NCBI GenBank assembly: GCA_000165345.1 | Contig: CM000434.1 | Location: forward strand, 992,001 to 1,056,000 | Direction: 5' to 3' | Length of the DNA: 64,000 bases | In this document: positions 1,175-60,742 of the stretch, in pieces | Numbering within the stretch: the first letter of the stretch is position 1 | How the letters are laid out: every line of letters starts with the position of its first letter | The notes under the pieces: generated by a model | Seen by the model: only the letters and a program-made list of their open reading frames with translations | Databases searched by the model: none | Told to the model about the DNA's origin: nothing | Translations under genes and position numbers: made by a program

Positions 1175-1548
1175 TTTAATTTGTATTGAGTTTTTTTGCA
1201 TCTGATTTTTTCCCCACATTGTACACGTAAGCGATTTCAATTACGTGTTTTTGCGGTAATTAAAATAATAACTATATGCCGGCATTTACATGCCAAATAA
1301 TTTTAAAAAGAAGTGTAGGATTGCATGTGGATGCATGCGAGTAGAATTAGCTGGTGAATAACAAGGAGAGTGCATTAATTAATTTTTGATATGAAAACTT
1401 AGAAGGTGGAAGAAGAGATAAAGTTGAATATATTAATTTTTAGATAGGGTATAAATGTATATTTATATATATTTATATTTTTAATTGACAGTAATGTTTT
1501 AGAGTTGAGCAGATAAGAATCCCATATTATTGCTAAAAGGTGTAATAA

Positions 1549-13200: not shown

Positions 13201-16200
13201 CCAAAGATTGAATTCACAGAGTGGAAATGTCATGGTGGATTCTTTTGTGCTGCTGCTGTATATATTGCTGAGGATTACATTGATTCAATTGCTGCAGGAG
13301 ACGTAATGGCTGATTGTGATATAAAGACTATTAACCCAAAGCTATATCAAGAGACTCTAGATCTTCTGGAAGTTTCTGAGGAAGAACTTCAGTATATCCC
13401 ATCTTGGGTATCTACACAAGTTAATACTTATGGTCCAAACAATGTACATTTGGAGATGCCTTCTTCAGAAGTTGATCATCTTGCAATGTGTGTAGATATT
13501 GCAAACGTTACTGTATGTGACTCAACAACATGTGTATTTGGACATCCTCTAATGGATGCTGGTTTATCAATTGATCCTTACTCTTTATGGATGCTTGTTG
13601 ATTATCGTTGGGGTTGGCCTTTAGTAAACAGCTACTTCCAACTCCAAGAACCTTTGGTTCAAGCTTTTTCAGCAGATCCTTCTGTTATACTTTCTGGGAG
13701 GACTATTCTCACTCCTTCAGCTCAAAAGCTACTCAATTCATTATCATTCAAATCTTTACGAGATTCTATACCAAAGTTTTGGAGCTTATTATTCGATATT
13801 ATGTTAGGACCAGATTTGGATTCTAAGGATCTTGATGCAATTCTACAAGTAGTTCCTCATCTTAGATCTCTATCTGCTAATATATTTCTTGAGATCCATA
13901 GGCTTTTGGAAGAATTTGGTATTTCTGAGGAATCTCAAGATCTTTTATTCTCCCAATCTGAGCTATACTCTGCTTTAGAACCTGATGTTAATCATTGTGA
14001 AATTAATAAAGATGATCTTCAAGATCAAGATCAAGATCAACAACATGATAAAGGCTGTCTAAAAGAGTATTTAAAGAATAACATTACAATCGAAGATAAA
14101 CTGGTACCTTATAATAAAGTAAAAATGATTTTATATCCTTCAATTCCTTCTCATCCTCCAAGCTTCCAACTAAATCAAAATGAAATCACTCCATCTTATA
14201 ATATTGCTCTAAACTTCATTAACAGGCTTCACATCCTTCTTTGGCCTCATCTTATACATTTTATCTATGAGCTTCTTCCTGTTGCAATTACTATCAGACT
14301 AAAAAGACTTCTTTTCAAGAGTAGTGACGACCTCTTATTTGATCCCAGACTTACTCCTGAAGATCTTTGTGCTAGATTCTTAACAGAATCCAAGTTTCTA
14401 TTAGAATCTAGCTGTTGTCCACTTAACTTGATTAGATTCTGTGATAACAAACAGCTTTTGAATGCTGCAATAAACCAGGTAGCAGCAGCTTTAGATATAC
14501 ATGGATCATCATATACAGCAGCTTCTTGTTCTTTATCTTGTCCTACTAATAGAATGATTGATAGATTTGCTTCAGAGCTTGGAAGTTCAAACTTTGTAGT
14601 CCCAATATTGGTATATATTACTCAAATATTACTTTCTGGAACATTATATAGAGTATCATCAAAATTACTTCCACCTGAAGCTTTGTATACTTGGCCTACA
14701 AGTTCTTCAAATCAAGAATCTTTGTCTTTAACAGGTATCGGGAATTTAATTAATCATAAAGATTCCACGCCTTCAAAACAGTCAACTGGATCAAAAAAGA
14801 GGAATTCTTCAAATAAGTCTTCTTCTGGTACAGCAAGTTCTAATGGATTAATTGTACCAAATCCACTCTCAGAAGCAATTCAACATCTTCAAGTGAATCA
14901 GGTATCATTCAGTCATATTGATCCTTATGTATTTATTCCTCTTCATACATTCCACGCTGTATCAACTCCTTTATTGGTAAACATCATCTTTGAAAATGAT
15001 CTTATAGGGAGGAAGTCTTTTGCATCTGAGAGTTTTCTATGTGCTTCCAGAGTCCTTCATGTAAATAGACTTGCAACAGTAAGACATTTATACTCAGCAA
15101 TAAGAAAAGTTCTATATCAACAATTTCTAGATACAAAGATTTCTAATAGTTTAGATACTCCAGATGTAACACCATTAGATACTCCTCAATCTAAGAATAA
15201 TAATGAACATAATACAATAGGAGGAAGACAACAATCTTCTGGTCATACTCATACTAATAAGAAGAATACAATATCAAATATTCCGATACCTATAGATTGT
15301 GAAGGTTTTGATTTAAGTTGGATACCAAGTAATCCATTGGATGTTTTCTGTCTTTACTCTTTAAGACCAGATACTGATCCAACAAGAAGAGGAAGACTTA
15401 AATATACTTATATGCAACCAAATGACTTTCTAGAGAATCATTATTATGGACCTCACAAATCTAATTATGTTACGTATTGTGATGTTGCAATTTTAATTTG
15501 TGTACCTCCAGAATTGAAGCTCCAAATACCTCCAGGATCTCAGAATTCGGATCATATAACAAAAAATTCTTCATCCCAAATGAATACAGTATCGGTATCT
15601 GGAGTAGGGGTACCGGGAAAAGCAGCAAGCTTAATGGGGTCAATATCAGCAGGAATTGGAGAATCTGATTCAGATTGTGCATGTTTGTATACTTGTCCAA
15701 GTCATATAGCTCATTCACCAGTATGTCAGAGTTCAAGGATGATAGAAAAGACTGTTCCAAAAATCGTCTCACCTTTATTCAAGGCTAAACTAATAGATCC
15801 TTTATGGTCAAGTACTAAATTCCCAATGAATGATGATTCAGTTGCTCCTCTTTTGATTTTTAAATGGTTTGATCAGACAACTTTGGATATTACACTGTTA
15901 AGTGCATCAATATGTGAAGCAAGAAAGTCTTTAAGAGATTGTATTGTTTCTTGGGTATTCCCTAGAGCAAGAAGAATGGGATTAATGCCTCAAAATTCTT
16001 CTAAAGAGACTCCAAATGCAGATGATTATACAGTTTTAGAGGAATGTCATATTAGAGTATGTCAAAATGTAAGAAGATGGACTTCATCAATAAAGAAAAT
16101 CAATAGAACAACAGGAGATGTATTTATTGTTCAAAAAAGATACAATAATTTGGGATCATCCCAACCTCTGATTTCTGATTGTTCATTTATATCACCCTTT

Positions 16201-19200
16201 ATATCAGCAGCATTATCATCTAATTCATATTCGGGTATTGTAGATGACTTTCCGCCTTCTCTTTCAAGGGATGAGTTATTAGCTATAATTACTAGTATGA
16301 ATACTAAGAAGATTAACCAGCTTGGGATCTTTAATACTCCAATTAAAGGTATATCAGGAAGCAATTCTCCAACAGTATTAGATCTAAAAAAGAATAGTTT
16401 GGATAGAACTTGGCCGATATCTGCATCTCCTATGGGAGGAGATCCTAAATTAACCTTTTCACAATTCTTTGATATTCTTAAGCATGGGGACGATTCTGGG
16501 GACTTTTTAGCATCCCAAATTGAGGATTTGGATATCTATTCATATCAGAATAGTAGTTGTAAGATTTCTATGGAAGATATTTCTTCATTAAAATCCGGTA
16601 CCGATCAAGGAAATTCATTGAATCAGGCAGAAAAAGGTAATCATTCTGTAACTGGAGTTAGTAATGAAACAACTTCAATAGATTTGAAGTCAGTTACAAC
16701 ATTTACTAATACAAATACAGTACAGATTTTAAATGCAAACAACTCTAATCAAAATGATTTATCTGCAATTTCTAGTAACTCTTTAATTGGAGGAACAGGA
16801 GTGGCGGGAACTTCTGGAGGTGGATCTAAGAAGAAGAAAAAAGCTTCCAAGAAGCTTCCTGGAATTCCATCACTACAGAAATCAAGCATTGTGAAGGCTT
16901 TAAATGCTCAGAGAAGACTAGAATCTCAATCTACAAGACTTGTAGATAATGATTCAGCTGATTTATCAGGATTGAGAGGGAGAGATCAAGGTCAAGATCA
17001 TGATCAAGATCTTGATCATGATCGGAGTCAGGGTCAGAATCAGAATCAGGATCAGGGTCAGGGTCAGGGTCAAGCCCAGGATCATGATCAGGATCAGGAT
17101 CAACATAGTAATCAGTATAATGAAGAGGAATCCAAACAGGATAATAAGGGAAATGAAAAACGCAAAGAAGGTCATAAAGAGAAGGATGTTGAAAGAAGTG
17201 ATATTAAAGTAAACAATTTATCTACAGCTTTGAAAAAGGATGCAAACTCTCCTGAATCTATGGATAAAGCTGGCTTGGAGGCTAAGCCTGATTCATCTTC
17301 TCCTTCTTCCTCCTTTTCTTATGGAACTGTATCTCTTAGACCAGAAAAGCTTCAGAAAGTTCCTGATGAACTTTTTGAAATCGCTCTTGAAAGCTTTTCT
17401 GGAGACTCATTCAGTGTCTCCAGCTTAGTTGGCCGTTTATTGGAGCGTGTTATATGCAGATTTTCTGAGATCTCAAATAGAAAAAAGGAAGACTCCTCAT
17501 CTCATATTTCTGAAACCTTTTCTGATTCTAATAATAGATCCGAATTCCTATTATGGATGAATGGATTAAATGATCTCGTATGTAACTTATCTTTGATTGG
17601 AGGTAGCAAAAAGATTGACCAAACTCTTATTCAAAGAGAAATCATACAACTCCTTAGAAGACTTCTCTCAACTGAGACAAGTTCTCAACAACTTTCTAGT
17701 GTTGCATCTGAAAGTCTTTCATCTATAATTAAATATTTAGAGGATGGAAATCTTGAGCCTTGTTTTAAATCAATAATTTACAATATTCCACAAGTTGGAT
17801 CAGGATCAAGATCATTAATATCGGTACCTGGTTTATTAAAAACGATACCCAAATATGGTAATAATTTTAATAAAGAATCATTTAATAATTATTATAATAA
17901 TATGTATAATATTTTAGTACCAGTACAACAAAGATCTGCTATTTTGTTCACAATATTATTAATTAAAAGTTTAACAATACTGTCTCCAAGTTCAATAATA
18001 GAGATGCATCTTGGATTACTTCCTAAGACGGATTATATAAGATCTAATTCATTAATTAAATCAACAGGTTATAAATCAATTAAGTCGTTTGTTTTGTTAG
18101 CATACTTTTTGAATGTTTTTGGAGTTAAAGATGCAATGGATGTTATTATTTCAATACAAGGAGTTAAAGGATTTGAGAATCTATTGATTAGGATGGCATC
18201 CTATACTATAGGCTTGAGACAATATGCAACTAGTAACTTTATTATAGAGAATATTGAAAAGCTTCATGATCATCATCCATCTTTAGATTGGGTATCGTCT
18301 TTAAGAATTACTGATAAGTTAGCAATCAGTGAGGAAGTTCTTAAGAAGACTTTGGAGACTATTTGTGATCATTTTTCTACAAAGAGTAATTCAGCTTTTG
18401 CTCAGAATAAGAAGACTTTGGATTTAATACAAAATGTTGAAGGAATTGTCAGATTCTCAGATATCAATGATTTTGCATATGAACAGGCTCAATTATTAGA
18501 AATGAGAAAAGTTGGAAAAGATTCTCCTCAAATATTAGTTAATAATGATGACTTATGTATAATACTTAAACCTCCTTTCTGGTATTGTCCAATAGAAGGT
18601 ACAGGGATGGATGAGGATGAACAAGATGAGGAGGATAAACAAGATGAACAAGAAGAAAGTGTAGAATATGAAGAAGAATTAGAATACAAAGAAGATGAAA
18701 CTGATGGTGATAAAATAGAAAATCAAAGAAATGATGACAAGAAAAGAAGAAAGGTAAAAAAGAAGCTTGATCATGATAATATCCAAGATGAAAACAATAA
18801 GGATGAGAAAACAGGTATAAGAAAAGATCTTAAGAATAAAGTATCGAGTATTATAATTAAAGAAGAAGATAATGATTCTGAAATTGAAGTTGAAAAAGAT
18901 AATAATAATAGTAATACTGATGAATTTGAGGAGATTCTAAATAGTGGAAGAATGGAAAGTATCTTGAACTTTTTGAAATTAAGATGTAAAGGAATAGGCT
19001 TAGATTTAAGAGGTAACGAGAAAATGATTAAAAGAATTGGATTAAAACTTGGAGTTGAGATTGGAGGTCCAATATTAATTTTAAAGAATGAAGATATGGA
19101 GAAATACTATAATAAGAATGAGATCTTGAATCAAATTCATTGTCAGTATATATTTTTATGCCATGGACAGATTCAGAATTCTTCTGATAGAAATGTCTCT

Positions 19201-21702: not shown

Positions 21703-21850
21703 CAAGACAAAACAAAAAAATGTAACTTATAGCTTTTTCTTTTAAATTAAATATATATTTAAATTTGTCTCCCTTTTCTTTTTCTTTTTCTTCTTCTTCT
21801 TCTTCCTTATTTTTTTGGTCCTTTCAATATTTTGCATCCTCCATTTTTAC

Positions 21851-21884
21851 ATGCATGCAGAACTTTTGGCGCCACCCCACACTA
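21851..21884. promoter_or_regulatory. composite ATGCATGCA + E2F (ttttggcgccacc) + G-box-like (ccccacacta) module upstream of gene 22221
   Basis: Contiguous 34-nt GC-rich module. 20-mer almost identical to module at 53535-53558. Confidence 0.6.
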
Positions 21885-22220
21885 CCGGCATTGGATGCAT
21901 TTATTAGTAGTGGGCGAGGCACTCTAAGAGGTTTTTTTCTTTTTTTTTTTTATTATTTAAATTAAAATTCTAAAGTATTGGTAATAATAATCATAAAAAA
22001 AGTTTATATAATTATAACCACATTGATTAATATTTATTTCTAAATATTAATACTAATATTGTTTTCTATAAAATATCACTTCCTTGAATGTAATATTAAT
22101 ATCCTAATCTTCTTTCCCCTCTATATTAAAAATATTTCGAAAGAAGGGAATGAGGAAAAGTTGTTTAAGACATTAATAACTATTTGGAATAATTGTGTAT
22201 AAATAAGGGGGAAAAAAAGG

Positions 22221-24395
22221 ATGATTCCGAATGGATCAAAACTTGAGCTTGGAACTTTAGTATTAGGTTCTGAAACAGTAAGAAAAGGATGGAATGCATT
22301 TTCAACTTTAAATAATGCAATAGATGGAGTTAGAAAAGTGGCAAATGATGTAGTAGGATATAATAATTCAACAACAATAGGAAATGAGAATTATAAAGGA
22401 GAATTGGAAAATAATAAAATAGTAAGTATAATAGAGAAAATAGAAGTAGGACAGGTATATGGAAGATTAAAAAATGATTTAAAATTAATACAAATATTTG
22501 AAAGAGAAACAAAATCAATGGGAACTTTAGAAATTATTTCAATTAATAATAATTTAGACTTTTCATATTTAAATATAAGATGGAGACGAAAAATGGGTGA
22601 AAAATTAATTGATATACAAGGTAAAGATTCAAGCCTAAAATATAACTTAACAGCTGATGATGTAGGAACAATTATTATTATAGAAATATATCCAAAAGGA
22701 GAAGCAAATGATCCTTTAAATATTACATATTGTGAATTAGGACCTATAGAAATAGATGATACAACAAAGATATCTTTATCAAAATCTTTAAAAACAGGTC
22801 TTATTAGATTCCCTGTAGAAATTATAAAAGATGAATTTGAAAGCTTAATAAATCCAGAAAATTCTTCAAAAGAATTAAAAAATGATGAAGATTCAATAAT
22901 GACAAAAGATATTTTGGTAGTAACAAATGATGATGTTAAAGTAATTAAAAATGGAATGACAAGTTCAAATTCAAACTTTGAAAAGAAAATTGTATGGTCA
23001 GCAAAATACTTTGGTGGTAATATACATATTCAATTAAATCATCAATCATCATCTTGTCAAGAATTCACTCTTTGTTCTGGATACGATATTCATAAACAAA
23101 AGATATCAATTAAAACAACAAGTAGAAATGCTAGAGATATTGCAGCTTTAACAATTAGATGTTTAAATATTAGACACACAATATCATTAGAAGCTATAAT
23201 TGGAGGTGGAGTTTCCTGGATCCCAAAAAACTCAACAGTAAATGATTCAGATAATATGGAAATTGAAGAAAATAGAAAATTAAATATTTTTGCTTATATA
23301 GGACGTCTAGAAGATGAAATTGCAAATTTAGAGAATAACAAGGAAAAACTGAACGAAGATAAAAAACTTCTTCAAACTGAAAAAGCTATTTTAGAAAATG
23401 AATTAGCTGAGACAATTTCAGCTTATCAAGATATAATTTCTCAATATCAACAAGAAAAAGATACTAAAACCAATACTAACAAACAAACCAAAGAATTTAA
23501 CATAGAATTTGGGCTTGAAAAGAACACAGGAATTAAACAATCCAACAATAGTCCAAACAAAAAGTCGATTCAATCAAATTCAAATAATTCTCATAAATCT
23601 ACCTTACTACATGGTTACAGTGGTACCTATCCTATAAATAATTCAAAACAAGATGGATCTAGCAATTCAGAAAATAATAATAACTCACAGAAAAATGAAT
23701 CCATTCAACAAAATTCCACTGAAATTAATAAAATAATTGAAGAAAATGCTTCTCTTAAAGAGTCCATTTCTCAACTTAATAAAAAATTTGAAAATGAAAT
23801 TGGCGCCAAAGAGTCAATGGAGCGCATGCATGCAGAAATTGAAGAATTGCGCGGGAGATTGGAAAGGTCGGAAAAAGAAAAGGAAGACTATAAAAGATTA
23901 AATGAAAAATTAGATGGCGAAATCTTTGTTAAAAATCAAGAATTAGAGAGTATTAAGTTAGGACAATGTTTAAATTCGACTAGAAATATAGAAAAGATAC
24001 AGCAATTGGAAGATCGCATATTGGATCTTCAGAGTCAGAATTCTGAAAAACAACAAGCTATTCAAACTTTATCAACAGAAAAATCAAAGCTTCTAAAAGA
24101 CTTTTCATCATTAAAATTAGACTTTGATAAGCTTAAGGAGCAACATAATCAACTAAATAAGAGATACATAAGCTTAAATCTTGAGAATTCAAGAATTCAT
24201 GATCAAGAAAAATCATCAAAATTTGACAATGAACTCATGAATTCTGACTCTCAAAACAAAAATGACCAAGCTGTTGATATTACAAAACTAAAAAGTGAGC
24301 TTGAAGATTATAAGAAAACTAATTGTGAGCTTAACCAGACTATAACTCAACTTAAAACAAGAATACGAAGGTTAGCAATGATCAATTCTACTTAG
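22221..24395 (+). CDS. hypothetical protein, 724 aa, with C-terminal coiled-coil region
   Basis: Long ORF. C-terminal 300 aa heptad-rich (LEDRILDLQSQNSEKQQAIQTLSTEKSKLLKDF…). E2F/G-box/GCATGCA module 350 bp upstream. Confidence 0.65.
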   Translation: MIPNGSKLELGTLVLGSETVRKGWNAFSTLNNAIDGVRKVANDVVGYNNSTTIGNENYKGELENNKIVSIIEKIEVGQVYGRLKNDLKLIQIFERETKSMGTLEIISINNNLDFSYLNIRWRRKMGEKLIDIQGKDSSLKYNLTADDVGTIIIIEIYPKGEANDPLNITYCELGPIEIDDTTKISLSKSLKTGLIRFPVEIIKDEFESLINPENSSKELKNDEDSIMTKDILVVTNDDVKVIKNGMTSSNSNFEKKIVWSAKYFGGNIHIQLNHQSSSCQEFTLCSGYDIHKQKISIKTTSRNARDIAALTIRCLNIRHTISLEAIIGGGVSWIPKNSTVNDSDNMEIEENRKLNIFAYIGRLEDEIANLENNKEKLNEDKKLLQTEKAILENELAETISAYQDIISQYQQEKDTKTNTNKQTKEFNIEFGLEKNTGIKQSNNSPNKKSIQSNSNNSHKSTLLHGYSGTYPINNSKQDGSSNSENNNNSQKNESIQQNSTEINKIIEENASLKESISQLNKKFENEIGAKESMERMHAEIEELRGRLERSEKEKEDYKRLNEKLDGEIFVKNQELESIKLGQCLNSTRNIEKIQQLEDRILDLQSQNSEKQQAIQTLSTEKSKLLKDFSSLKLDFDKLKEQHNQLNKRYISLNLENSRIHDQEKSSKFDNELMNSDSQNKNDQAVDITKLKSELEDYKKTNCELNQTITQLKTRIRRLAMINST

Positions 24396-38178: not shown

Positions 38179-38230
38179 CCCCACACTTAGATAATCTAAA
38201 AAGGGTTTCTCTTTTTGGCGGCAAACCCGC
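38179..38230. promoter_or_regulatory. G-box-like ccccacact (38179) and E2F-like tttttggcggcaaacccgc (38212) upstream of Rpt1
   Basis: GC cores ~200-240 bp upstream of ATG 38424. Confidence 0.5.
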
Positions 38231-43077: not shown

Positions 43078-43530
43078 CGTGCCGCCAAATTTCCATTTGT
43101 ATTTTATTATTTTAAATTATATACACTCGTTGCTGCTAAGCTATTGATTCTTTGACAATAAAAAAAAGTTAAATTTTACAAGCAGTTCTCTGCTTTTGAT
43201 CATACAATCAAGCTTATTCCGCCTTGATATTTCTTTATTATCATTTCTTCTCTTTTTCTTTTTGTTTAATTCACGATTTTTTTTTTCTCTTTTATTATCT
43301 TCATTTAAAATGCCAACATAAATATTTTTATAAAATTTCAAAAATCTGCATTTCCACATTAATACGTAATTATTTCTGCATGCAAACACCGGCACGCTGA
43401 CAATTATTTAATGAAAAATTTTGTTTGTTTGCATGTAATGCCGGTATATTAATTAGGAAAAAAAAAATGTGCGCCTAATTCGAAAATTATTTTCTGTAAT
43501 TTATTATTAATCAGGTTCGATTCCCACACT
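43078..43530. promoter_or_regulatory. divergent promoter (RRM gene / PP2A B'' gene): cgtgccgccaaatttcc (43078), gcatgcaaacaccgg (43378), cccacacta (43522)
   Basis: E2F-like, AP2-like and G-box-like elements in 880-bp spacer. Confidence 0.5.
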
Positions 43531-43693
43531 ACCCATTTTTTTATTATTTTGAGTGGATGAGGGGCCACACAGTGAAATTTTGCCCTCTTTATTTTTTGCT
43601 TGTTTACATGTTAAATATTTGGGAGGGTAGGAGGCAAGAAAAAAAAACAATTAAAATAAAAATTGCCTCATTAATAACTTTAATGGAGTCAAT

Positions 43694-50207: not shown

Positions 50208-53200
50208 CTACCAATTAAGATCAAGCCTTTTGATTTGCTCCCCAATAGAATTCACATCCTTTCTAACTTTGGTTCTTCTATAAAATATAGGGCAATCTCT
50301 TGAAGTACAAATAATATCTTGGAAAGCACTTCCTTGGCACCTTTGGCACTGAGTCCAGAGTGAATTATATTCAATTTCTTTTTCTCTGAATTCATGAAGT
50401 TTATTAATAAGTACCGAACATTCCATATTTTCTTGTTTGGAACAATCTTTACAAAGTGGACCTTCCTTTATAATTGTTTTACAATTCATACACTGAAGAC
50501 CCTTCTTTACAAATCCTGCTAGAGCGCCTCCTGTAACACTCAAAACAGTTACAGATCTTGTATGGCTTCCTGAAAAGAGTTTTTCAGGATCCTTCATGAC
50601 TCCTTCAAAAACTCGAATTACTGAAGATTTTAGTGTATCTACATAATGTTGTGTATCAATTGCGAGATTATTTTCGAGTACATATAATGGATCTTCAGCG
50701 CGATCATATTGAGGCTGACCTTTAGCACCTTTAATTACTACATAAGAGACTCTGTCTCCAATATTTGGTGCAGATCCTGGGTCTCTTAATTTAAGCCTTT
50801 TTGCTAACTCAACATGAGCGAGTTTTGCAGTATAATCATCTTTTCCAAGACTCTTACTAACTACCAACAAAGACAAGTCTATTTTATTCTTTAGTAAGTC
50901 TGAAATTACATTTCTGGTATATTGTTTGGCTGCTTCAACATCTTTATCAACTAGAATCTTCTTTAAGACAGTATCAACCACTTTTTGTACAAGAAGACAG
51001 TTATCTCTTCTAACAGTCTCAATTCCCTTACAATCAATTCTCTCATGGAATTGTGGATTCTTAAAAAGTACTCCAGCATATCTTTTTTTATTCATCAATA
51101 AGAATGGACAATATACTTTTTCAAATTCTAATTTAATTGGTTTTACAAAGAGCTTACTTATTGAAGTTGCAGCTTCCAAACCAAGTTTCATTGCTTCTCC
51201 AATATCTGATACTCCAAACTGAATCATTACAGAATCTGTGTCACCATAAACAACTTTGGCATCAGCAGAATAACCATTTTCTTTTCTATATATCTTTTCA
51301 ACCTCATTTTTGGTAATATCAATCATTGCTCTACCATATGAAGTAATACTTGTTGAAAGTTCCAAGCATGGAAGTTGGCCTCCAGCCACTGCACCAGTAT
51401 ATCCATAAACACTATTTGCTGAAGTCTTTAAAGCAAGTTGTCTACCATTTAAAATAGAGATTAATGTTGGATCAGTTGCTTCCTCCATTTCTTTTTTGGC
51501 TTTCTTTCTTGCAGCTATAAGCTCTTCAACAATTAATGGAAGTATACCCTTTCTGACTGAAGATAATACAAAAGAATGACCAGTTGGAGAAGTCTTTCTT
51601 AAATCTTCTGGTACATTTTTAAGATTAAGTGGAGGAATTAGTGTAGAATAGCAAATATTGTGAGCAATCATAATTGAGGGATACAAAGAAGCAAAATCTA
51701 AAGTAGAAATTGGGTCCTTATAAAATCCTTTTAAAGGTTCTAATACAGTTGCTCCTTCATATTGGTTATCCCCATCAGATTGATTCTTTACTGTTGGCAT
51801 CAAGAAGTTGGTAGACTTACATTTCCTCAAGATTTGGCTTGTAACTTTAATTTGTTGGCCTCTACTTAGCAAAATATCTATTGTGGTACCCGTTACTCTT
51901 GCCATTTCTATAATATTTGGGAATAATTTCAAATGTTTCATAAGCCTTAATGGAAGTATTGAATCTTTGAGACAATATATTGCAATTCTCTTTCTTGTTT
52001 CAGGATTTCCATCTTGTAAGCCTCTAATCATTGAATAATGAACATCTTCTTTTTGTTCTTTTAGAAAGTTTGTGGAAACGTAGTTCAAAGAATAGCTTTT
52101 TAATTTGTGCTCTCTACGAATAGTCTCCAAAATATCCCATAGAATCCTTCCTTCAATATTAATCAATTTACTCTCATGAGTTCCAAATGCTCTGGATGAA
52201 AATCTGGTATCTTTACTTGTAATTTTTGTTTTAGCTAGCCTTGTAAAGAAGAAAAAATCATTCAATTGGAATAATTTAGCTCTTTCTAATAGGTAATTCA
52301 TATCAAAATTGATGCAATTATAACCTGTAATGACATCTGGATCTAATGCCAATAAAAAATCCTTCCATGCTAATAACATATCTTTTTCAGACTCAAACCA
52401 AAATACAAAAGCTTCAGCTACTGATGCACATTCTTTGAGAGTAAATATTACATTACAAATGGATTCAGGGCTATCTAGAAGTGTTACTACTGAAGATATT
52501 TGGATAACAGAATCTTTATGTGGCTCTGGAAATCCTACTCCAGACTCTGTAATGCATTCAATATCAAAAGAAAGTATTCTTATTGGTGGTAAAGTTGCCC
52601 ATTTCCCTGAGCTTCCAAGCACTATCAAATCGTCATAGAAAAGATCCATTTCTATTTGGCATGAACTAATTCTTTGAAATGGGCTTATCCTTACAAAACC
52701 TGCATCTTTAAAATCAAATTCTTGTCCTCCAAGTCTAATATACGATTTTTGCTTCGGTATCGATACCCATGATCCGGTACTTAAATCTCTATCAATTAAA
52801 TATCTTAGAATAAAAGGTATATTTGCTTCGTAAGCTTGAGGAATACAATCTAAATTCCCATTTTCTATCATAGATCTACAGGTGGGAACTAAGTTTGGTA
52901 GTTGTAGAGTGATTTTGTAGAACTGGGAATCTTCTATTTCTGAATCGCCTTTGTAATGCATTATTGATTCTTTTTTTAAAACTTGTACATTAAGGACATT
53001 TTTTCCTTCTGTTGCTCCTAATCCACTTTCAATTTGAGTTTTAATCTTTTCTGGATTAGGAGGTGTGCTTTTAGGTACTTCACAGTAGAGATAAGGAAAG
53101 AAACAGTGAATATTTATTAAAACTGTTATTCCGGTGCTGGTTGACCCAAATAGTTGTATTATTGGTGTTTCAATGTTGTCTTGGTTAGTCTTATTAGAAA

Positions 53201-53462
53201 ATACATTGTAAGAGCTTGAATTATACTTTTCATAAAACTCAGGTGATGGATTTTGGGAAGGAAATTTCCCAGTTGAAAACTTGGCATCCAATATGCAAAA
53301 GTCTAAATTATCATCTTTTGAAATATTCCCACATTGTGGATCAAGACTAACTTTGTTTCTTCTCCATCTATCCAGACAATTCTCAAAAAGCTTCCGAGAA
53401 GCTTCTGCATTCTCTTGGGTGAATCCTATGGTAGAAATTATTTCTTCCCCCTTTTCCATCAT
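50208..53462 (-). CDS. POLD1: DNA polymerase delta catalytic subunit (family B)
   Basis: 1084 aa. Exonuclease motifs (FDIE, YNCINFD), polymerase motifs (DFASLYPSIM, KxxxNSxYG, YGDTDS), C-terminal CysA/CysB zinc modules. Collinear with human POLD1. Confidence 0.95.
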   Translation of the reverse strand: MMEKGEEIISTIGFTQENAEASRKLFENCLDRWRRNKVSLDPQCGNISKDDNLDFCILDAKFSTGKFPSQNPSPEFYEKYNSSSYNVFSNKTNQDNIETPIIQLFGSTSTGITVLINIHCFFPYLYCEVPKSTPPNPEKIKTQIESGLGATEGKNVLNVQVLKKESIMHYKGDSEIEDSQFYKITLQLPNLVPTCRSMIENGNLDCIPQAYEANIPFILRYLIDRDLSTGSWVSIPKQKSYIRLGGQEFDFKDAGFVRISPFQRISSCQIEMDLFYDDLIVLGSSGKWATLPPIRILSFDIECITESGVGFPEPHKDSVIQISSVVTLLDSPESICNVIFTLKECASVAEAFVFWFESEKDMLLAWKDFLLALDPDVITGYNCINFDMNYLLERAKLFQLNDFFFFTRLAKTKITSKDTRFSSRAFGTHESKLINIEGRILWDILETIRREHKLKSYSLNYVSTNFLKEQKEDVHYSMIRGLQDGNPETRKRIAIYCLKDSILPLRLMKHLKLFPNIIEMARVTGTTIDILLSRGQQIKVTSQILRKCKSTNFLMPTVKNQSDGDNQYEGATVLEPLKGFYKDPISTLDFASLYPSIMIAHNICYSTLIPPLNLKNVPEDLRKTSPTGHSFVLSSVRKGILPLIVEELIAARKKAKKEMEEATDPTLISILNGRQLALKTSANSVYGYTGAVAGGQLPCLELSTSITSYGRAMIDITKNEVEKIYRKENGYSADAKVVYGDTDSVMIQFGVSDIGEAMKLGLEAATSISKLFVKPIKLEFEKVYCPFLLMNKKRYAGVLFKNPQFHERIDCKGIETVRRDNCLLVQKVVDTVLKKILVDKDVEAAKQYTRNVISDLLKNKIDLSLLVVSKSLGKDDYTAKLAHVELAKRLKLRDPGSAPNIGDRVSYVVIKGAKGQPQYDRAEDPLYVLENNLAIDTQHYVDTLKSSVIRVFEGVMKDPEKLFSGSHTRSVTVLSVTGGALAGFVKKGLQCMNCKTIIKEGPLCKDCSKQENMECSVLINKLHEFREKEIEYNSLWTQCQRCQGSAFQDIICTSRDCPIFYRRTKVRKDVNSIGEQIKRLDLNW

Positions 53463-53534: not shown

Positions 53535-53558
53535 AAAAGGCGCCACCTCCCCACACTA
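53535..53558. promoter_or_regulatory. E2F + G-box module aaaaggcgccacctccccacacta in 233-bp bidirectional promoter of DNA pol delta and RecQ
   Basis: Only GC-rich element between divergent ATGs 53462(-) and 53696(+). Near-identical to 21864-21884. Confidence 0.65.
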
Positions 53559-53695: not shown

Positions 53696-56668
53696 ATGGA
53701 AGATGAATCAGAATTTCAAGAAACTCATAAGAGTAGTTTAGAGTCGGAATTAAGATGGTATAAGGAGAATTTTGAACAAATAAAAAACGATTTACTCTCT
53801 AAATTGAATAAAGGCAGAAGTTCTAACTCAGAAATATCATGTGTGCTGCAAAATGAAACAAACAATATCGGTAAAATCTTTTTCGGAAAACCTATCAGAG
53901 ACTTTTCCTCGTTTTCCAATGTAATTCGAAATGTTTCAAAAAAAATTACCTTCAATAGTGATAGCCATGCATGCACACACCCGCATGCAAACACCGGTAT
54001 TGAAAATACATACGTGGCAGAGATTTCGGATAATCATGTGGACAACATAATTAGTAATCACAAAAAAGTTGAAGAGTTGTGTAAGGAAGAGAATGAAGAT
54101 GAAGTTATAGAATTGAAAGTATTGGGATGTGGAGGAAGGGAAGTAGAGGAGATTGTATCAAGCTCATCTTCTAGCAAGGAGAATTTATATACAATTTTGA
54201 ATATCCTGCCAAATTCTGACTTTTCAACGGTTAAAACAAAGTCCAGAAAGAATACAACAAAGAAAAGCTCTTCAAACGAGAAAAAGTTATTGAATTGCAG
54301 GAGAAAAGTTCAGGTCAATGAGAAGGACCAAGATTGGGAAAGGGAAGATTTTGAATGGTCAGAGGATATGAAAAGAATCAATGAGCAAGTTTTTGGCAAT
54401 GAATCATTTAGGTCAAATCAAAGACAGATAATGAATGCAGTGGTTTCTCAAAGGGACGTTTTTGTTATGATGCCAACAGGAGGAGGAAAGTCACTTTGTT
54501 TCCAGCTTCCTGGCCTTTTAAAATATAACAACCCTGCAAGTGTGACGGTGGTTATCATGCCCTTAGTTGCACTTATGGTTGACCAAATTGAACAGTTGAA
54601 TATACTCGGCATTAAATGTGCAAGTTTGAATAGTAATCAGTCTGCAGATGAGTTGAATCATATTACATCCTTACTGAAGAAGGGAGATCCTGAAACATGT
54701 CCTGCCTTTCTATTTGTAACTCCCGAAAAGCTTAAGCATTCAAAGACTTTGTTTTCACTACTAAAGCAAATTAATGATGAATCAAGATTATTAAGATTTG
54801 CAATTGATGAGGCTCATTGTGTTTGTCAATGGGGATTTGACTTTAGACCTGACTATATTCAACTTTGTAAACTCAGAGAAGAGTTCCCAAATGTCCCGAT
54901 AATAGCATTAACTGCCACTGCCACTCATAGTATTTTGAGTGATGTAATTAAACAACTAAAGATGCGATCTCCTGCTATCTTTAGTCTTTCTTTTGACAGA
55001 CCAAATCTAAAATATGAGGTAAGAGCTAAAAGTGGAAGTAAAAAAAAGATGCTCAATGAGATCTGTGAGCTGCTTAGATCTCCACGGTTTTGTAGATCAA
55101 CAAGTATTATCTACTGTTTGAGCAGAAATGAGTGCGAAGAAGTCTCCAAAGATTTGAACAAGGAAGGAATTTCTGCAACATATTACCATGGATCCATGAA
55201 AGAAGATAAGCGGAATCTGGCACAAAGAAGATGGATGAATGACGAAAAGCAGGTCATGGTAGCAACCATAGCATTTGGAATGGGAATCAATAAAAAAGAT
55301 GTTAGACTTGTGATTCATCTATCCATGCCAAAATCCCTTGAAAACTATTACCAAGAAAGTGGTAGAGCTGGAAGAGATGGACTAGAGTCTAAATGTATAT
55401 TATATTACTCTTACAAAGATGTCTCTAGATTACAAACTTTAGCAGGAGTTAACATTGAAAAACCTTCCAAAAAGTATTATACCTCCAAGAATAACTCTTC
55501 AAATAACAAATCCACAATTGATGGACTTTTAGGTATGGTGAAATATTGTGAAGAACAATATAAATGCAGAAGAACAATGATTCTAAGCCATTTTGGAGAG
55601 GATTTTAAAGGAAAATGTAAGGTTAAATGCGATAATTGTATGAGATCTGAATTAGAAAAGCCGACTAACATTAATGTGGAAGGTCTTGCTCGTCAAGTCT
55701 TTCACTCAGTAAGAATGAGCCTTCAAGAACAGGCAAGAGCTACAAAAACCTATGGATTTTTAACTTTATCTAGCTTAGCAGAAATCTTAAAAGGAAAGAA
55801 AAAGAAAGATAAGCAATCAAAAGGCTCCCTTAAAGACTGTATTGGTCTTCTTAATGATACAAATATTTGGAAGCCAGGAAATCTGCAAAGATTCCTGCAT
55901 TTGTTTATTATTAATCAGCTTTTTTCTGAGAATTTGGTTCAACTCAAAAATGGAGTATCAGTTGCTTCTCTTAAAATTGATAAACAAGCAGAAAAACAAG
56001 ATATCTATGAACTCGACTTTTCTTGTTTCAAAGCCTTACAGTTAGAGTCCATCTACTCTACTCCAATTCCAGAATCAAATAATGTTAATTTGGGCCATAA
56101 TATTAACTCATCTCTTTCCTTGTATTCTTTTAACTCAAAACAATCTTCTTCAGATATTAATTTTGCTAATAATGGCTTAATATCTAACTCTAACAACATA
56201 GAGAACTTGAATCACGATAAGAATCTCAAGGAATCCAGAAGAAAAAGACAATTCATTGATAAAGGATCTCCCCATTCAATAGTTAAGAAGAAGCAGGCAA
56301 ATTTGATGTATCAAGAATCTAACAGTGAAAATGAACAGCTTAAAGATTTTAGAAATCAATTACTTTTACTAAGAAGAAACTTAGCTGCAGAGTTTGGAAT
56401 CTCTAATACCAACTCTATTGCATCAAAGGAAGCTATTGATGCTCTTGTTGAGAATCTCCCGCTTTCATTAGATGCTCTTAAAACACTTCCTGGATGGGGC
56501 GCAAGGCAAAAACTTGAAAGATTTGGTCTCAGATTCATCTCAAAGGTCAGAGATTTTGTTGATTCCAAGTCAACCAATATGTTTTATACCGAAAAGAATT
56601 ATACTTGTCCAATTGACCTTATTAATCCTGAAGATCTGGACAAAGAACTAGATCTTATTTGGCAATAA
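53696..56668 (+). CDS. RecQ-family ATP-dependent DNA helicase
   Basis: 990 aa. Helicase core (MPTGGGKSLCFQLPG, DEAHCVCQWGFDFRPDY, RQ-C zinc region), C-terminal HRDC-like domain. Non-conserved 220-aa N-terminal extension. Alternative in-frame ATG at 54368. Confidence 0.9.
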   Translation: MEDESEFQETHKSSLESELRWYKENFEQIKNDLLSKLNKGRSSNSEISCVLQNETNNIGKIFFGKPIRDFSSFSNVIRNVSKKITFNSDSHACTHPHANTGIENTYVAEISDNHVDNIISNHKKVEELCKEENEDEVIELKVLGCGGREVEEIVSSSSSSKENLYTILNILPNSDFSTVKTKSRKNTTKKSSSNEKKLLNCRRKVQVNEKDQDWEREDFEWSEDMKRINEQVFGNESFRSNQRQIMNAVVSQRDVFVMMPTGGGKSLCFQLPGLLKYNNPASVTVVIMPLVALMVDQIEQLNILGIKCASLNSNQSADELNHITSLLKKGDPETCPAFLFVTPEKLKHSKTLFSLLKQINDESRLLRFAIDEAHCVCQWGFDFRPDYIQLCKLREEFPNVPIIALTATATHSILSDVIKQLKMRSPAIFSLSFDRPNLKYEVRAKSGSKKKMLNEICELLRSPRFCRSTSIIYCLSRNECEEVSKDLNKEGISATYYHGSMKEDKRNLAQRRWMNDEKQVMVATIAFGMGINKKDVRLVIHLSMPKSLENYYQESGRAGRDGLESKCILYYSYKDVSRLQTLAGVNIEKPSKKYYTSKNNSSNNKSTIDGLLGMVKYCEEQYKCRRTMILSHFGEDFKGKCKVKCDNCMRSELEKPTNINVEGLARQVFHSVRMSLQEQARATKTYGFLTLSSLAEILKGKKKKDKQSKGSLKDCIGLLNDTNIWKPGNLQRFLHLFIINQLFSENLVQLKNGVSVASLKIDKQAEKQDIYELDFSCFKALQLESIYSTPIPESNNVNLGHNINSSLSLYSFNSKQSSSDINFANNGLISNSNNIENLNHDKNLKESRRKRQFIDKGSPHSIVKKKQANLMYQESNSENEQLKDFRNQLLLLRRNLAAEFGISNTNSIASKEAIDALVENLPLSLDALKTLPGWGARQKLERFGLRFISKVRDFVDSKSTNMFYTEKNYTCPIDLINPEDLDKELDLIWQ

Positions 56669-56947
56669 CTTATCATAGTTATCTCTAATTTGCTTAATTA
56701 AACTATTTTTCTTATAAGTCTCTTTAACCAGATAATCATAATATTTATTCTTTACTAGAATCCATTTAATGTTATTAATATGGCAATTTGGCGGGAATTT
56801 TATGCAATTCTTATTTGTTGTGCATGGCCTCGTTTGGCGCCCAGTCTGTGTATAAATGAGGTATAATGTTCAACTTGTATTTTAATAGAAGTTGTTGGTT
56901 CAAATTTGTAGATCCAAAGTTCGTTATGATCTTATTGCATTTCCAAG

Positions 56948-57952: not shown

Positions 57953-58024
57953 GTTTTTACTTTGTTCCTTCCTTTCACTCTAAATTAATCCTTGAATTTT
58001 AAAATTTATATGTATAAACAAAAA

Positions 58025-58065
58025 TATATGAATATATATATTAACCCAATATATATATTCATATA
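58025..58065. repeat. perfect 18-bp inverted repeat (tatatgaatatatatatt / aatatatatattcatata) with 5-bp spacer aaccc
   Basis: Arms are exact reverse complements. Lies 72 bp upstream of minus-strand ATG 57952 in a 1-kb divergent spacer. Confidence 0.9.
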
Positions 58066-60242: not shown

Positions 60243-60387
60243 TCCCCTCCTTCTCCCCACATATCCTCTATCAAGTCTTTATCTAAGCAGAATAATAATA
60301 AATTCTCTCTGTAAAACGATTGCCGCCAATACTATGACTACCCATTTTGCATGTACCAGTCATTTGTTAACTTTGACGTGTTTATTA

Positions 60388-60454: not shown

Positions 60455-60742
60455 ATGGAGGGAGAAAAGGAGAACAGTTCTATTCAGGCTATTGAAAAAC
60501 TTCAACTACTGCAAAGAGTTGTAGAATCACAGAAGATGATGGCAAAGTTGACTTCTAGGTGTTATAAGAAGTGTGTTGTGGGAGGATCAGGAGGTGGAGG
60601 AAAGAGTCTAACGAGGAAAGAGAAACTTTGTTTGTGGAACTGTGCCCAGAACTTTCTTGAGAGTTCGGAATTCGTTGCTTCAAGAATCACGATGGTGGAA
60701 GATACGTCTTTATCCAATCAAAAGGACTCGGAGAAGTCTTAA
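60455..60742 (+). CDS. small Tim (Tim8/Tim13 family) mitochondrial/mitosomal intermembrane-space chaperone
   Basis: 95 aa from first ATG (the ORF track starts at an in-frame TTG at 60434). Twin CX3C motifs (CYKKC … 18 aa … CLWNC) with the family-typical GG…L…E.C spacing. E2F palindrome ttggcgccaaattt at 60388-60401 immediately upstream. Confidence 0.65.
   Translation: MEGEKENSSIQAIEKLQLLQRVVESQKMMAKLTSRCYKKCVVGGSGGGGKSLTRKEKLCLWNCAQNFLESSEFVASRITMVEDTSLSNQKDSEKS

What the first reader, a model, noticed from the sequence alone, without database searches (positions are those of the whole stretch)
21864..21884. Near-identical 20-nt composite E2F+G-box module shared by two unrelated promoters
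ttttGGCGCCACC-CCACACTAcc (21864-21884, upstream of gene 22221) versus aaaaGGCGCCACCTCCCCACACTAtg (53535-53558, pol delta/RecQ). The CCCCACA[CT][TA] part (reverse complement GTGTGGGG, a G-box-like element) also recurs alone at 1213, 38179, 43522 and 60255, always upstream of genes. This fixed-spacing composite element has, as far as I know, not been singled out before.
Basis: seen in the sequence. Interest (0 to 1): 0.6.

Follow-up and report, generated by a model that had tools for sequence, protein, structure and literature searches.

The report
Conserved E2F plus G-box promoter pair
Two Cryptosporidium parvum promoters each carry two already-known promoter motifs (an E2F-like site and a "G-box") side by side, and this pair is the most conserved part of both promoters across the genus; it is a real regulatory element, but one built from known parts and largely anticipated by earlier motif studies.

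Summary
The window is C. parvum chromosome 6 (cgd6_4240–4460). They differ by a 3-nt indel, not 1. [quoted passage not shown] Flanks are unrelated (8/30 and 7/30 identical).

Orthologous promoters from up to seven Cryptosporidium species show that the two boxes are the dominant footprints. At the pol delta/RecQ promoter, the only 7-mers shared by six species are GGCGCCA and CCCCACAC.

The spacer sequence is not conserved. Spacing is locus-specific (1 vs 4 nt) and drifts to 2, 3 and 8 nt in distant species, so this is not a fixed-spacing 20-mer.

Prior art exists. Mullapudi 2007 reported ggCGCCAtccncAC for three replication genes (nine genome-wide hits). Oberstaller's pol delta cluster 45 is flagged with exactly Motifs 2 and 3.

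The three flanked genes are all late-expressed (36-72 h; r = 0.88 for cgd6_4300 vs pol delta). Several neighbours without the pair show the same profile.

Verdict: these are real, conserved, adjacent binding sites. Functional coupling between them is plausible but unproven. Novelty is modest.

The parts
21865..21874 (+). Site 1 E2F-like box TTTGGCGCCA (palindromic core GGCGCC at 21868-21873)
   Evidence: Exact match to published Motif 3 DTTGSCGCCH. TGGCGCCACCCC is one of only two blocks shared by the intergenic regions of six species. GGCGCC is the only 6-mer shared by all seven.
21875..21882 (-). Site 1 G-box-like box (GTGTGGGG on the - strand; CCCCACAC on +), 1 nt after the E2F core
   Evidence: Matches Motif 2 DTGTGGGG. 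Conserved as CCCCACA in parvum, meleagridis, chipmunk genotype, ubiquitum and canis; CCCCCC in felis; CCCCACAG after a 2-nt spacer in bovis.
53539..53545 (.). Site 2 E2F-like core GGCGCCA (no T-run), in the 233-nt divergent pol delta/RecQ promoter
   Evidence: Fits the review consensus [A/T][C/G]GCGC[G/C][A/T] as AGGCGCCA but not Motif 3. GGCGCCA is one of only two 7-mers shared by six species' intergenic regions.
53546..53548 (.). Site 2 spacer (with A53545: ACCT), not conserved in sequence
   Evidence: Orthologues have ACCT, ACTT, AATT, AATT and AAA, and 8 nt in C. andersoni.
53549..53556 (-). Site 2 G-box-like box (GTGTGGGG on the - strand; CCCCACAC on +)
   Evidence: CCCCACAC is the only 8-mer shared by six species. 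CCCCAC is the only 6-mer shared by all seven, including C. andersoni.
21851..21917 (+). Wider conserved block around site 1: ATGCATGCA (AP2_1 motif), the E2F/G-box pair, CCGGCAT, GATGCATTT, GTGGGCGAGG
   Evidence: Nearly invariant from C. parvum to C. canis while the rest of the intergenic region is unalignable. Lost in C. felis and C. bovis except for the E2F/G-box pair. Not a structured RNA.
22221..24395 (+). cgd6_4300, genus-restricted coiled-coil protein, downstream of site 1 (353 nt)
   Evidence: 100% identical to a C. parvum Iowa II protein. The RT-PCR primer for cgd6_4300 maps at 23784-23805. No Pfam or PDB assignment.
50208..53462 (-). cgd6_4410, DNA polymerase delta catalytic subunit; site 2 lies 77 nt upstream of its ATG
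   Evidence: Pfam DNA_pol_B, exo1, zf-C4pol. Primer match. Listed with a 234-nt upstream region in Mullapudi 2007.
53696..56668 (+). cgd6_4420, RecQ/BLM-type helicase; site 2 lies about 140-157 nt upstream of its ATG
   Evidence: Pfam DEAD, Helicase_C, RecQ_Zn_bind, HRDC. Annotated 'RecQ bloom helicase'.
1212..1219 (-). Solo G-box (CCCCACAT on +), 337 nt upstream of the Mo25-like gene; GGCGGG and TGCATGCA lie 40-57 nt upstream of it
38179..38186 (-). Solo G-box (CCCCACAC on +), upstream of the proteasome Rpt gene; E2F-like CCCGCC 17 nt upstream and GGCGGC 31 nt downstream
60255..60262 (-). Solo G-box (CCCCACAT on +), 200 nt upstream of a 95-aa Tim10-like ORF (60455-60742); GGCGCC lies 128 nt downstream of it
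43523..43531 (+).

Best explanation
Each site is a pair of adjacent transcription-factor binding sites in a compact C. parvum promoter. One is an E2F-like GGCGCC(A) core, presumed to bind the E2F/DP heterodimer. The other follows 1 nt (site 1) or 4 nt (site 2) later and is an inverted G-box-like Motif 2 (TGTGGGG), a motif that the AP2 domains of cgd8_810, cgd2_2990 and cgd1_3520 bind in vitro.

Shown here: both boxes match the published motifs; they are the dominant conserved footprints of both promoters across the genus; and the three flanked genes are silent at 2-6 h and peak at 36-72 h.

Inferred: the two proteins sit next to each other, with the G-box occupying the flank normally taken by the AAA half of a palindromic TTTGGCGCCAAA site. 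This would let the G-box factor modulate E2F-driven transcription, shifting an otherwise early (6 h) E2F promoter to late expression. By timing, the late, female-stage AP2 cgd8_810 is the best candidate.

My confidence differs by step:
- Two functional, selected sites: about 0.85.
- Their closeness is itself functional (cooperative or competitive): about 0.4.
For: Motif identity.

Enrichment in the window: GGCGCC 12 vs 0.42 expected, 10 of 12 intergenic. All five DTGTGGGG hits are intergenic and in one orientation.

Conservation:
- Site 1 reads GGCGCC-A-CCCCACA in five species, with variants in felis and bovis.
- Site 2 reads GGCGCC-N4-CCCCACAC in five species, N3 in felis, and CCCGCC-N8-CCCCAC in andersoni.
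- An unbiased shared-k-mer test leaves only these boxes.
- Convergent 3'-3' spacers share nothing, which serves as the negative control.

In-window adjacency: P = 1.8e-4 to 7e-3.

Prior independent detection: a GGCGCC+2nt+CCnCAC motif in three replication genes, with 9 genome-wide hits. Pol delta's cluster 45 is flagged with only Motifs 2 and 3.

Trans-factor data from the literature: AP2 domains bind the G-box on protein-binding microarrays. E2F/DP expression is maximal at 2 and 12 h. cgd8_810 is maximal at 72 h and female-specific.

Expression: cgd6_4300, 4410 and 4420 peak at 36, 72 and 72 h; r(4300,4410) = 0.88, the 94th percentile of local gene pairs. The lone-E2F neighbour cgd6_4310 peaks at 6 h.
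Against: - Spacing differs between the loci (1 vs 4 nt, a rotation of roughly 100 degrees around the helix) and drifts to 2, 3 and 8 nt in distant species. This argues against a rigid protein-protein composite.
- With only 1-4 nt between the boxes, few indels would be expected even without selection on the spacing.
- Deep conservation is not special to the pair. The lone E2F site TTGGCGCCAA upstream of TRAPPC8 is conserved in all seven species.
- E2F-like motifs occur upstream of about 80% of expression clusters. By my rough hand count of Table S4, only about 60% of Motif-2 clusters also carry an E2F-like motif, so there is no cluster-level association.
- The window was chosen post hoc. The conservative P of 7e-3 does not survive correction for about 142 windows.
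- Co-expression is not specific. cgd6_4480, 4530, 4380 and 4390 match equally well. Pol delta and RecQ share the element yet fall in different published clusters, 45 and 112.
- Sporozoite ATAC-seq peaks showed E2F motifs but no AP2 motifs.
- No direct binding data exist for either factor at these sites. The E2F assignment in Cryptosporidium rests on motif similarity only.
Confidence: 0.6

Rival explanations
1. Independent neighbours ('billboard'). Both boxes are functional and conserved, but they lie side by side only because Cryptosporidium promoters are tiny and E2F sites are everywhere. Closeness has no mechanistic meaning.
For: - Variable spacing between loci and in distant species.
- The spacer sequence is unconstrained.
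- E2F sites are very dense: 10 GGCGCC in 10.9 kb of intergenic DNA, and E2F-like motifs upstream of 161-163 of 200 clusters.
- Other G-boxes in the window sit 11-130 nt from E2F-like sites.
- C. ubiquitum has a lineage-specific CCCCAC 5 nt from the TRAPPC8 E2F site in the opposite relative orientation.
- No cluster-level association (hand count).
- The look-elsewhere correction removes the conservative P value.
Against: - Two tight pairs in the same relative orientation within one 64-kb window (P = 1.8e-4 under the uniform null).
- The same arrangement at 2-nt spacing was found de novo in three replication genes and at nine sites genome-wide.
- Adjacency is retained in every species examined at both loci, although the surrounding intergenic DNA has turned over completely and its length varies from 191 to 682 nt.
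Confidence: 0.33
2. One long recognition site for a single factor, such as a multi-finger C2H2 protein or a multi-AP2-domain protein that reads GGCGCC...CCCCACAC as a unit, rather than E2F/DP plus a separate AP2.
For: - At site 1 the 15-nt stretch TGGCGCCACCCCACA is invariant in five species.
- The E2F assignment is by similarity only, and C2H2 zinc-finger proteins are candidate regulators in C. parvum.
- Plant AP2/ERF domains bind GCC-boxes (my own knowledge, not tested here).
Against: - Spacing of 1, 2, 3, 4 and 8 nt between the boxes is hard to reconcile with one rigid DNA-binding surface.
- Each box occurs, and is conserved, on its own: lone TTGGCGCCAA and solo G-boxes.
- No tested C. parvum AP2 domain bound the E2F-like motif on protein-binding microarrays.
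Confidence: 0.04
3. Not a protein-binding element at all: a chance resemblance, a small duplicated or mobile segment, or a conserved structured non-coding RNA at site 1.
For: The roughly 70-nt site-1 block is unusually long for a promoter footprint and contains an imperfect inverted repeat (CCCACACTA ... TAGTAGTGGG).
Against: - Chance is excluded by genus-wide conservation of exactly the two boxes.
- Flanks of the two sites are 8/30 and 7/30 identical, so there was no duplication.
- No Rfam family matches anywhere in the window.
- Fold z-score is -0.28, and 0 of 17 predicted pairs covary.
- In C. felis and C. bovis only the E2F/G-box pair survives from the block.
Confidence: 0.03

Closest known systems
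C. parvum E2F-like motif (Motif 3 DTTGSCGCCH / 5'-TGGCGCCA-3') and G-box-like motif (Motif 2 DTGTGGGG), Oberstaller et al. 2013 (PMC3734150); protein-binding microarray data in Oberstaller et al. 2014 (PMC4117751)
   Same: Both halves of both sites are instances of these motifs. Pol delta's expression cluster 45 is flagged with exactly these two motifs.
   Different: The papers treat the motifs separately. They explicitly leave 'orientation, spacing and number' open and do not describe tight adjacency or conservation beyond C. hominis.
Mullapudi et al. 2007 (PMC1779779) DNA-replication sub-set 1 motif ggCGCCAtccncAC and global replication motif aatgTggggaa
   Same: The 14-mer is GGCGCC + 2 nt + CCnCAC, the same two boxes in the same order and orientation. 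The pol delta upstream region (234 nt) was in the 14-gene training set.
   Different: - Spacing is 2 nt there, against 1 and 4 nt here, so neither window site matches it ungapped.
- It was tied to genes peaking at 2 h, whereas the genes here peak at 36-72 h.
- Its MEME E-value was only 10, from 3 sequences.
- It was not interpreted as E2F, G-box or a composite; the word E2F is absent from the paper.
Metazoan E2F/CLE and CDE/CHR tandem promoter elements bound by DREAM (Mueller et al. 2016, PMC5716687)
   Same: An E2F-type site with a second short element a few nucleotides downstream, in promoters of replication and repair genes (RAD51, CDC45, MYBL2). The second element tunes cell-cycle timing. 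The 4-nt spacer equals that of site 2.
   Different: - The partner element is TTYGAA-like and read by LIN54/MuvB, not a G-box read by an AP2.
- Spacing is strictly 4 nt in metazoans.
- C. parvum reportedly lacks pRB and most DREAM components.
- This is an analogy of logic, not homology.
Plasmodium G-box ((A/G)NGGGG(C/A)) of heat-shock and ribosomal-protein promoters, bound by an ApiAP2
   Same: A G-rich box recognised by an ApiAP2 domain and conserved between species.
   Different: Plasmodium has no E2F/DP, so no E2F partner exists there. In C. parvum the ribosomal regulon uses E2F instead.

Membership tests
C. parvum E2F-like motif (Motif 3 DTTGSCGCCH; review consensus WSGCGCSW) | Sequence match to the consensus | tested here: met
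   Site 1 TTTGGCGCCA matches Motif 3 exactly. Site 2 AGGCGCCA matches the 8-nt review consensus but not Motif 3, because it has no T-run.
C. parvum E2F-like motif (Motif 3 DTTGSCGCCH; review consensus WSGCGCSW) | Located in upstream or intergenic DNA and over-represented there | tested here: met
   GGCGCC occurs 12 times vs 0.42 expected; 10 of 12 are intergenic.
C. parvum E2F-like motif (Motif 3 DTTGSCGCCH; review consensus WSGCGCSW) | Bound by the E2F/DP heterodimer | not testable with these tools
   No binding data exist for Cryptosporidium E2F/DP. The assignment is by similarity.
[quoted passage not shown] | Sequence match to the consensus | tested here: met
   Both sites read GTGTGGGG on the - strand.
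[quoted passage not shown] | Conserved in orthologous promoters | tested here: met
   CCCCACAC is shared by six species at site 2, and CCCCAC by all seven. At site 1 the box is retained in six of seven species and altered to CCCCCC in felis.
[quoted passage not shown] | Bound by an ApiAP2 domain (cgd8_810, cgd2_2990, cgd1_3520) | not testable with these tools
   Published microarray binding is to the generic motif. Occupancy at these loci is unknown.
Mullapudi 2007 replication sub-set 1 motif ggCGCCAtccncAC | Ungapped match to the 14-mer, including the strongly conserved terminal AC | tested here: not met
   Site 1 GGCGCCACCCCACA and site 2 GGCGCCACCTCCCC mismatch at the terminal AC positions, because spacing is 1 and 4 nt rather than 2 (my comparison).
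Mullapudi 2007 replication sub-set 1 motif ggCGCCAtccncAC | Upstream of DNA-replication genes peaking at 2 h post-infection | tested here: not met
   Pol delta and RecQ are replication/repair genes, but they peak at 72 h and cgd6_4300 peaks at 36 h in the Mauzy data. The function of cgd6_4300 is unknown.
   1 nt vs 4 nt between loci; 2 nt (bovis), 3 nt (felis) and 8 nt (andersoni) within loci.
   All 16 instances (2 in the window and 14 in the 12 orthologous loci, counting the felis site-1 CCCCCC variant and the andersoni CCCGCC form) read E2F core then CCCC(A/C)C on the same strand.
   No searchable collection holds the C. parvum genome. Only the window plus 12 orthologous loci were available. 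The in-window P is 1.8e-4 to 7e-3, and the window was selected post hoc.
   The partner is CCCCACAC. C. parvum reportedly lacks most DREAM components.
Structured non-coding RNA | Rfam match, stable fold or covariation | tested here: not met
   0 Rfam hits; z = -0.28; 0 of 17 pairs covary.

The most novel reading that the evidence does not exclude
The tight E2F-then-G-box tandem is a genus-wide timing switch. An ApiAP2 docking directly beside, or in competition with, E2F/DP converts an otherwise early (6 h) E2F promoter into a late (36-72 h, gamont-stage) promoter. The target set would be recurrent and enriched for replication and repair genes. In effect this is an apicomplexan counterpart of the metazoan E2F/CLE-DREAM tandem, with an AP2 replacing LIN54/MuvB.
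Probability: 0.18. Interest if true: 0.6.

Novelty: new member of a known kind. Interest (0 to 1): 0.3.

Why it matters
Cryptosporidium is the only apicomplexan that retains E2F/DP, and how E2F interacts with the ApiAP2 network is an open question; the 2025 review lists no validated interaction. These two promoters give concrete, deeply conserved 15-20-nt test pieces in which an E2F site and an AP2 site touch. With CRISPR and reporter tools now available for C. parvum, mutating one box or stretching the spacer at the pol delta/RecQ bidirectional promoter would directly test whether AP2s modulate E2F-driven transcription. If the boxes prove independent, the finding is simply two well-conserved instances of known motifs.

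Tried and rejected
- Structured-RNA reading of the 70-nt site-1 block. Rfam over the whole window gave no hits, RNAalifold showed no covariation, and the fold z-score was -0.28. Rejected.
- Duplication or mobile-element origin. blastn-short and flank identity (8/30, 7/30) show similarity confined to the boxes. Rejected.
- Function of cgd6_4300. Pfam at E<=1 and a PDB sequence search gave only sub-threshold coiled-coil noise, so functional relatedness to pol delta/RecQ could not be established.
- MAFFT of the site-2 intergenic regions misaligned C. felis and C. andersoni, so I replaced it with direct motif listing and an alignment-free shared-k-mer test.
- Oberstaller Table S2 is truncated in the stored copy and does not show cgd6_4300. 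I went to the underlying Mauzy 2012 data instead.
- The Cohn 2010 heat-shock paper contained none of the search terms.
- A full-text search for cgd6_4300/cpbgf_6004300 found nothing beyond the 2007 paper.
Genome contigs holds only bacteria and archaea. A 14-18-base GC-rich pattern in 241 million metagenome records would, by my estimate, return mostly random bacterial hits.
- Two literature searches failed on syntax and were repeated.
- The E2F/Sp1 search returned nothing directly usable, so the E2F-Sp1 analogy is not used.
Full report
ORGANISM AND CONTEXT
The window is about 30% GC, is densely packed with long intron-free ORFs, and encodes eukaryotic proteins. The ORF at 22221-24395 is 100% identical to a Cryptosporidium parvum Iowa II protein, and its C. 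meleagridis orthologue is cmbei_6004300. Published RT-PCR primers for cgd6_4300 and cgd6_4410 map uniquely at 23784-23805 and 52766-52787. The window is therefore C. parvum chromosome 6, roughly cgd6_4240 to cgd6_4460.
- Site 1 lies in the 518-nt spacer between cgd6_4290 (a giant ORF) and cgd6_4300 (a genus-restricted coiled-coil protein with no Pfam or PDB assignment).
- Site 2 lies in the 233-nt divergent promoter between DNA polymerase delta (cgd6_4410, - strand) and a RecQ/BLM helicase (cgd6_4420, + strand).

THE OBSERVATION
GGCGCCACC occurs twice against 0.00 expected. CCCCACAC occurs three times against 0.21 expected. GGCGCC-N0-4-CCCCAC occurs twice against 0.00 expected.

Site 1 is GGCGCC-A-CCCCACACTA and site 2 is GGCGCC-ACCT-CCCCACACTA, so they differ by a 3-nt indel. 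The spacing between boxes is 1 nt and 4 nt. Outside the boxes the two promoters are unrelated (8/30 and 7/30 identity in the flanks), so this is not a duplicated segment.

Three of the four 'solo' sites (1212, 38179, 60255) are true CCCCACA[CT][TA] matches. The '43522' site is a tCCCACACTA variant. All lie upstream of + strand genes. For 60255 that gene is a 95-aa Tim10-like ORF at 60455-60742.

WHAT THE TWO HALVES ARE
Both are published motifs. Oberstaller et al. 2013 list Motif 3 DTTGSCGCCH (E2F-like, 114 clusters) and Motif 2 DTGTGGGG (G-box-like, 38 clusters).
- Site 1 matches Motif 3 exactly (TTTGGCGCCA).
- Both sites match Motif 2 on the - strand.
- Site 2 has no T-run and fits only the shorter consensus WSGCGCSW.

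In this window GGCGCC occurs 12 times against 0.42 expected, and 10 of the 12 are intergenic. The G-box motif is bound in vitro by the AP2 domains of cgd8_810, cgd2_2990 and (as a secondary motif) cgd1_3520. The E2F assignment rests on similarity only.

CONSERVATION (THE MAIN NEW RESULT)
I fetched orthologous loci through the proteins flanking each site.
- Site 1: C. meleagridis, chipmunk genotype I, C. ubiquitum, C. canis, C. felis, C. bovis.
- Site 2: chipmunk genotype I, an unnamed species from a Logan assembly, C. canis, C. felis, C. ryanae, C. andersoni.

At site 1, five species read GGCGCC-A-CCCCACA. C. felis reads GGCGCC-A-CCCCCC and C. bovis reads GGCGCC-GG-CCCCACAG.

At site 2, the orthologues read as follows:

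| Species | Site 2 sequence |
|---|---|
| C. parvum, chipmunk genotype I | GGCGCC-ACCT-CCCCACAC |
| unnamed Logan species | GGCGCC-ACTT-CCCCACAC |
| C. canis, C. ryanae | GGCGCC-AATT-CCCCACAC |
| C. felis | GGCGCC-AAA-CCCCACAC |
| C. andersoni | CCCGCC-CAATTCTA-CCCCAC |

An alignment-free test asked which k-mers containing at least one G or C are shared by all species' intergenic regions.
- Site 2: only GGCGCCA and CCCCACAC at k=7 in six species, and only CCCCAC at k=6 in all seven.
- Site 1: only TGGCGCCACCCC plus an unrelated TTATAGCTTT block in six species.

Convergent 3'-3' spacers of similar size share nothing, which serves as the negative control.

So both boxes are under purifying selection, and they are the principal footprints of both promoters. 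The spacer bases that made the two C. parvum copies look 'near-identical' (ACC) are not conserved.

Baseline: a lone palindromic E2F site (TTGGCGCCAA) upstream of TRAPPC8 is equally conserved in all seven species. Deep conservation is therefore normal for the main footprint of a Cryptosporidium promoter and does not by itself single out the pair.

IS THE CLOSENESS ITSELF MEANINGFUL?
For:
- Two tight pairs in the same relative orientation among 5 intergenic G-boxes and 10 intergenic GGCGCC sites give P = 1.8e-4 under uniform placement, and 7e-3 if G-boxes are confined to +-50 nt of an E2F site.
- Adjacency is retained in every species although the surrounding DNA has turned over completely.
- The same architecture was found independently in 2007 (next section).

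Against:
- Spacing is 1, 2, 3, 4 or 8 nt.
- A 1-4-nt spacer offers little target for indels even under neutrality.
- Other G-boxes in the window lie 11-130 nt from E2F-like sites.
- By my rough hand count of Oberstaller's Table S4, about 60% of Motif-2 clusters also carry an E2F-like motif. That is no more than the roughly 80% of all clusters that do.
- The window was selected post hoc from about 142 windows of this size.

I could not run the decisive genome-wide spacing histogram, because none of the searchable collections holds the C. parvum genome.

PRIOR ART
Mullapudi et al. 2007 analysed 14 DNA-replication genes, including pol delta with its 234-nt upstream region, which is exactly site 2's spacer. 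Their supplementary tables list two relevant motifs.
- A global replication motif, aatgTggggaa: 25 occurrences in 14 genes, and 253 genome-wide.
- A motif for three genes peaking at 2 h, ggCGCCAtccncAC: 26.9 bits, MEME E = 10, also found by AlignACE, 3/3 genes, and 9 occurrences in 9 of 3,396 upstream regions.

The second motif is GGCGCC + 2 nt + CCnCAC, which is this composite at a third spacing. The paper never mentions E2F or the G-box.

In Oberstaller 2013, pol delta sits in cluster 45 (membership 0.999). The only over-represented motifs of that cluster are Motif 2 and Motif 3. RecQ sits in cluster 112, which is flagged with Motifs 1, 2 and 14.

The 2025 review, the lncRNA paper and the 2025 ATAC-seq/polycistron preprint treat the motifs separately and do not mention a composite or cooperativity.

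CO-EXPRESSION
The Mauzy 2012 RT-PCR data (four replicates, seven time points) give these median profiles as a percentage of each gene's maximum:

| Gene | 2 h | 6 h | 12 h | 24 h | 36 h | 48 h | 72 h |
|---|---|---|---|---|---|---|---|
| cgd6_4300 | 0 | 0 | 3 | 27 | 100 | 56 | 54 |
| pol delta (cgd6_4410) | 0 | 20 | 11 | 52 | 89 | 63 | 100 |
| RecQ (cgd6_4420) | 0 | 0 | 4 | 5 | 19 | 38 | 100 |

- r(4300, 4410) = 0.88, the 94th percentile of 253 local gene pairs.
- r(4410, 4420) = 0.76.
- r(4300, 4420) = 0.47 on the linear scale and 0.93 on the log scale.

However, cgd6_4480, 4530, 4380 and 4390 fit just as well, so the signal is not specific.

One contrast is suggestive. Lone-E2F neighbours (cgd6_4310/TRAPPC8, 4290, 4320) peak at 6 h. 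All five in-window genes with a G-box or its variant peak at 36 h or later, against 5 of 12 genes without one. A one-sided Fisher test gives about 0.04 by my arithmetic, with tiny n. Gene-to-ORF mapping is partly inferred from numbering.

This fits the published timings: E2F/DP are maximal at 2 and 12 h, and the G-box AP2 cgd8_810 is maximal at 72 h and female-specific.

MECHANISM
Most likely, E2F/DP occupies the GGCGCC core and a G-box-binding ApiAP2 occupies the adjacent CCCCACA. In a canonical palindromic site (TTTGGCGCCAAA) that position is taken by the A-rich flank. The AP2 would then contact or compete with the E2F/DP dimer and shift output towards late stages.

The motif identities, the conservation and the late expression are shown here. 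Occupancy, and any cooperativity or competition, are inferred.

The nearest mechanistic analogue is the metazoan E2F/CLE and CDE/CHR tandem, which has a 4-nt spacer, occurs in S-phase and G2/M genes such as RAD51 and CDC45, and has a partner element read by LIN54 in the DREAM complex. That partner sequence and that machinery are absent here. The comparison is one of logic, not of family membership.

ALTERNATIVES EXCLUDED
- Structured RNA.
- Duplication.
- Chance.
- A single long-site factor is unlikely, given the variable spacing and the independent occurrence of each box.

VERDICT
It is best filed as new, well-conserved instances of known motifs in an arrangement already glimpsed in 2007. A testable but unproven hypothesis remains that their closeness couples AP2 and E2F regulation.

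Noticed in passing
window 21724-21736: AACTTATAGCTTT, starting 22 nt after the stop codon of cgd6_4290, is shared by five species, and TTATAGCTTT by six (to C. felis), while the surrounding spacer is unalignable. It may be a 3'-end processing or termination signal, or an unannotated C-terminal extension.
   Followed up: no
window 21851-21917: Site 1 sits in a roughly 70-nt block (ATGCATGCA ... CCGGCAT ... GATGCATTT ... GTGGGCGAGG) that is almost invariant from C. parvum to C. canis and contains an imperfect inverted repeat (CCCACACTA / TAGTAGTGGG). The block carries two TGCAT-type AP2_1 motifs. It is lost in C. felis and C. bovis except for the E2F/G-box pair.
   Followed up: partly
window 23799-23834 (inside the cgd6_4300 coding region): A palindromic E2F site (ATTGGCGCCAAA) and a TGCATGCA motif lie 19 nt apart inside the ORF, about 560-600 nt before its stop codon. 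The pair is retained at the DNA level in C. meleagridis, the chipmunk genotype and C. canis; C. ubiquitum keeps only TGCATGCA; both are absent in C. felis and C. bovis. It could be an internal or antisense promoter, or just coding constraint.
   Followed up: partly
window 56788-56842: Two E2F-like sites (TTGGCGGGAA, TTTGGCGCCC) lie in a convergent 3'-3' spacer between RecQ and the - strand gene at 56948-57952. They are not conserved beyond the chipmunk genotype. They are candidate promoters of antisense lncRNAs of the kind described by Li et al. 2021.
   Followed up: partly
window 58253-58276 and 58745-58753: In the 1-kb divergent spacer 57953-58964 the deepest footprints are TGCACAC(A) (the AP2_2 'GCACAC' motif; the only 7-mer shared by all six species including C. 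andersoni) and TGCATGCA. This promoter has no E2F site at all.
   Followed up: partly
window 1212, 21875, 38179, 53549, 60255 (and variant 43523): Every G-box-like hit in the window has its C-rich strand on the sense strand of the downstream + strand gene, 147-346 nt before the ATG. That is 5 of 5, or 6 of 6 with the variant. The bias is suggestive of orientation dependence but not significant on its own.
   Followed up: no
window 11989-11998: A perfect Motif-3 E2F site (TTTGGCGCCA) lies inside the giant cgd6_4290 ORF (10243-21702), far from any annotated gene start.
   Followed up: no
L002 5385-5401 (C. ubiquitum, TRAPPC8 promoter): C. ubiquitum has CCCCAC 5 nt upstream of the conserved TTGGCGCCAA site where C. 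parvum has CCTCAC. This is a lineage-specific G-box-like sequence next to an E2F site in the opposite relative orientation.
   Followed up: no
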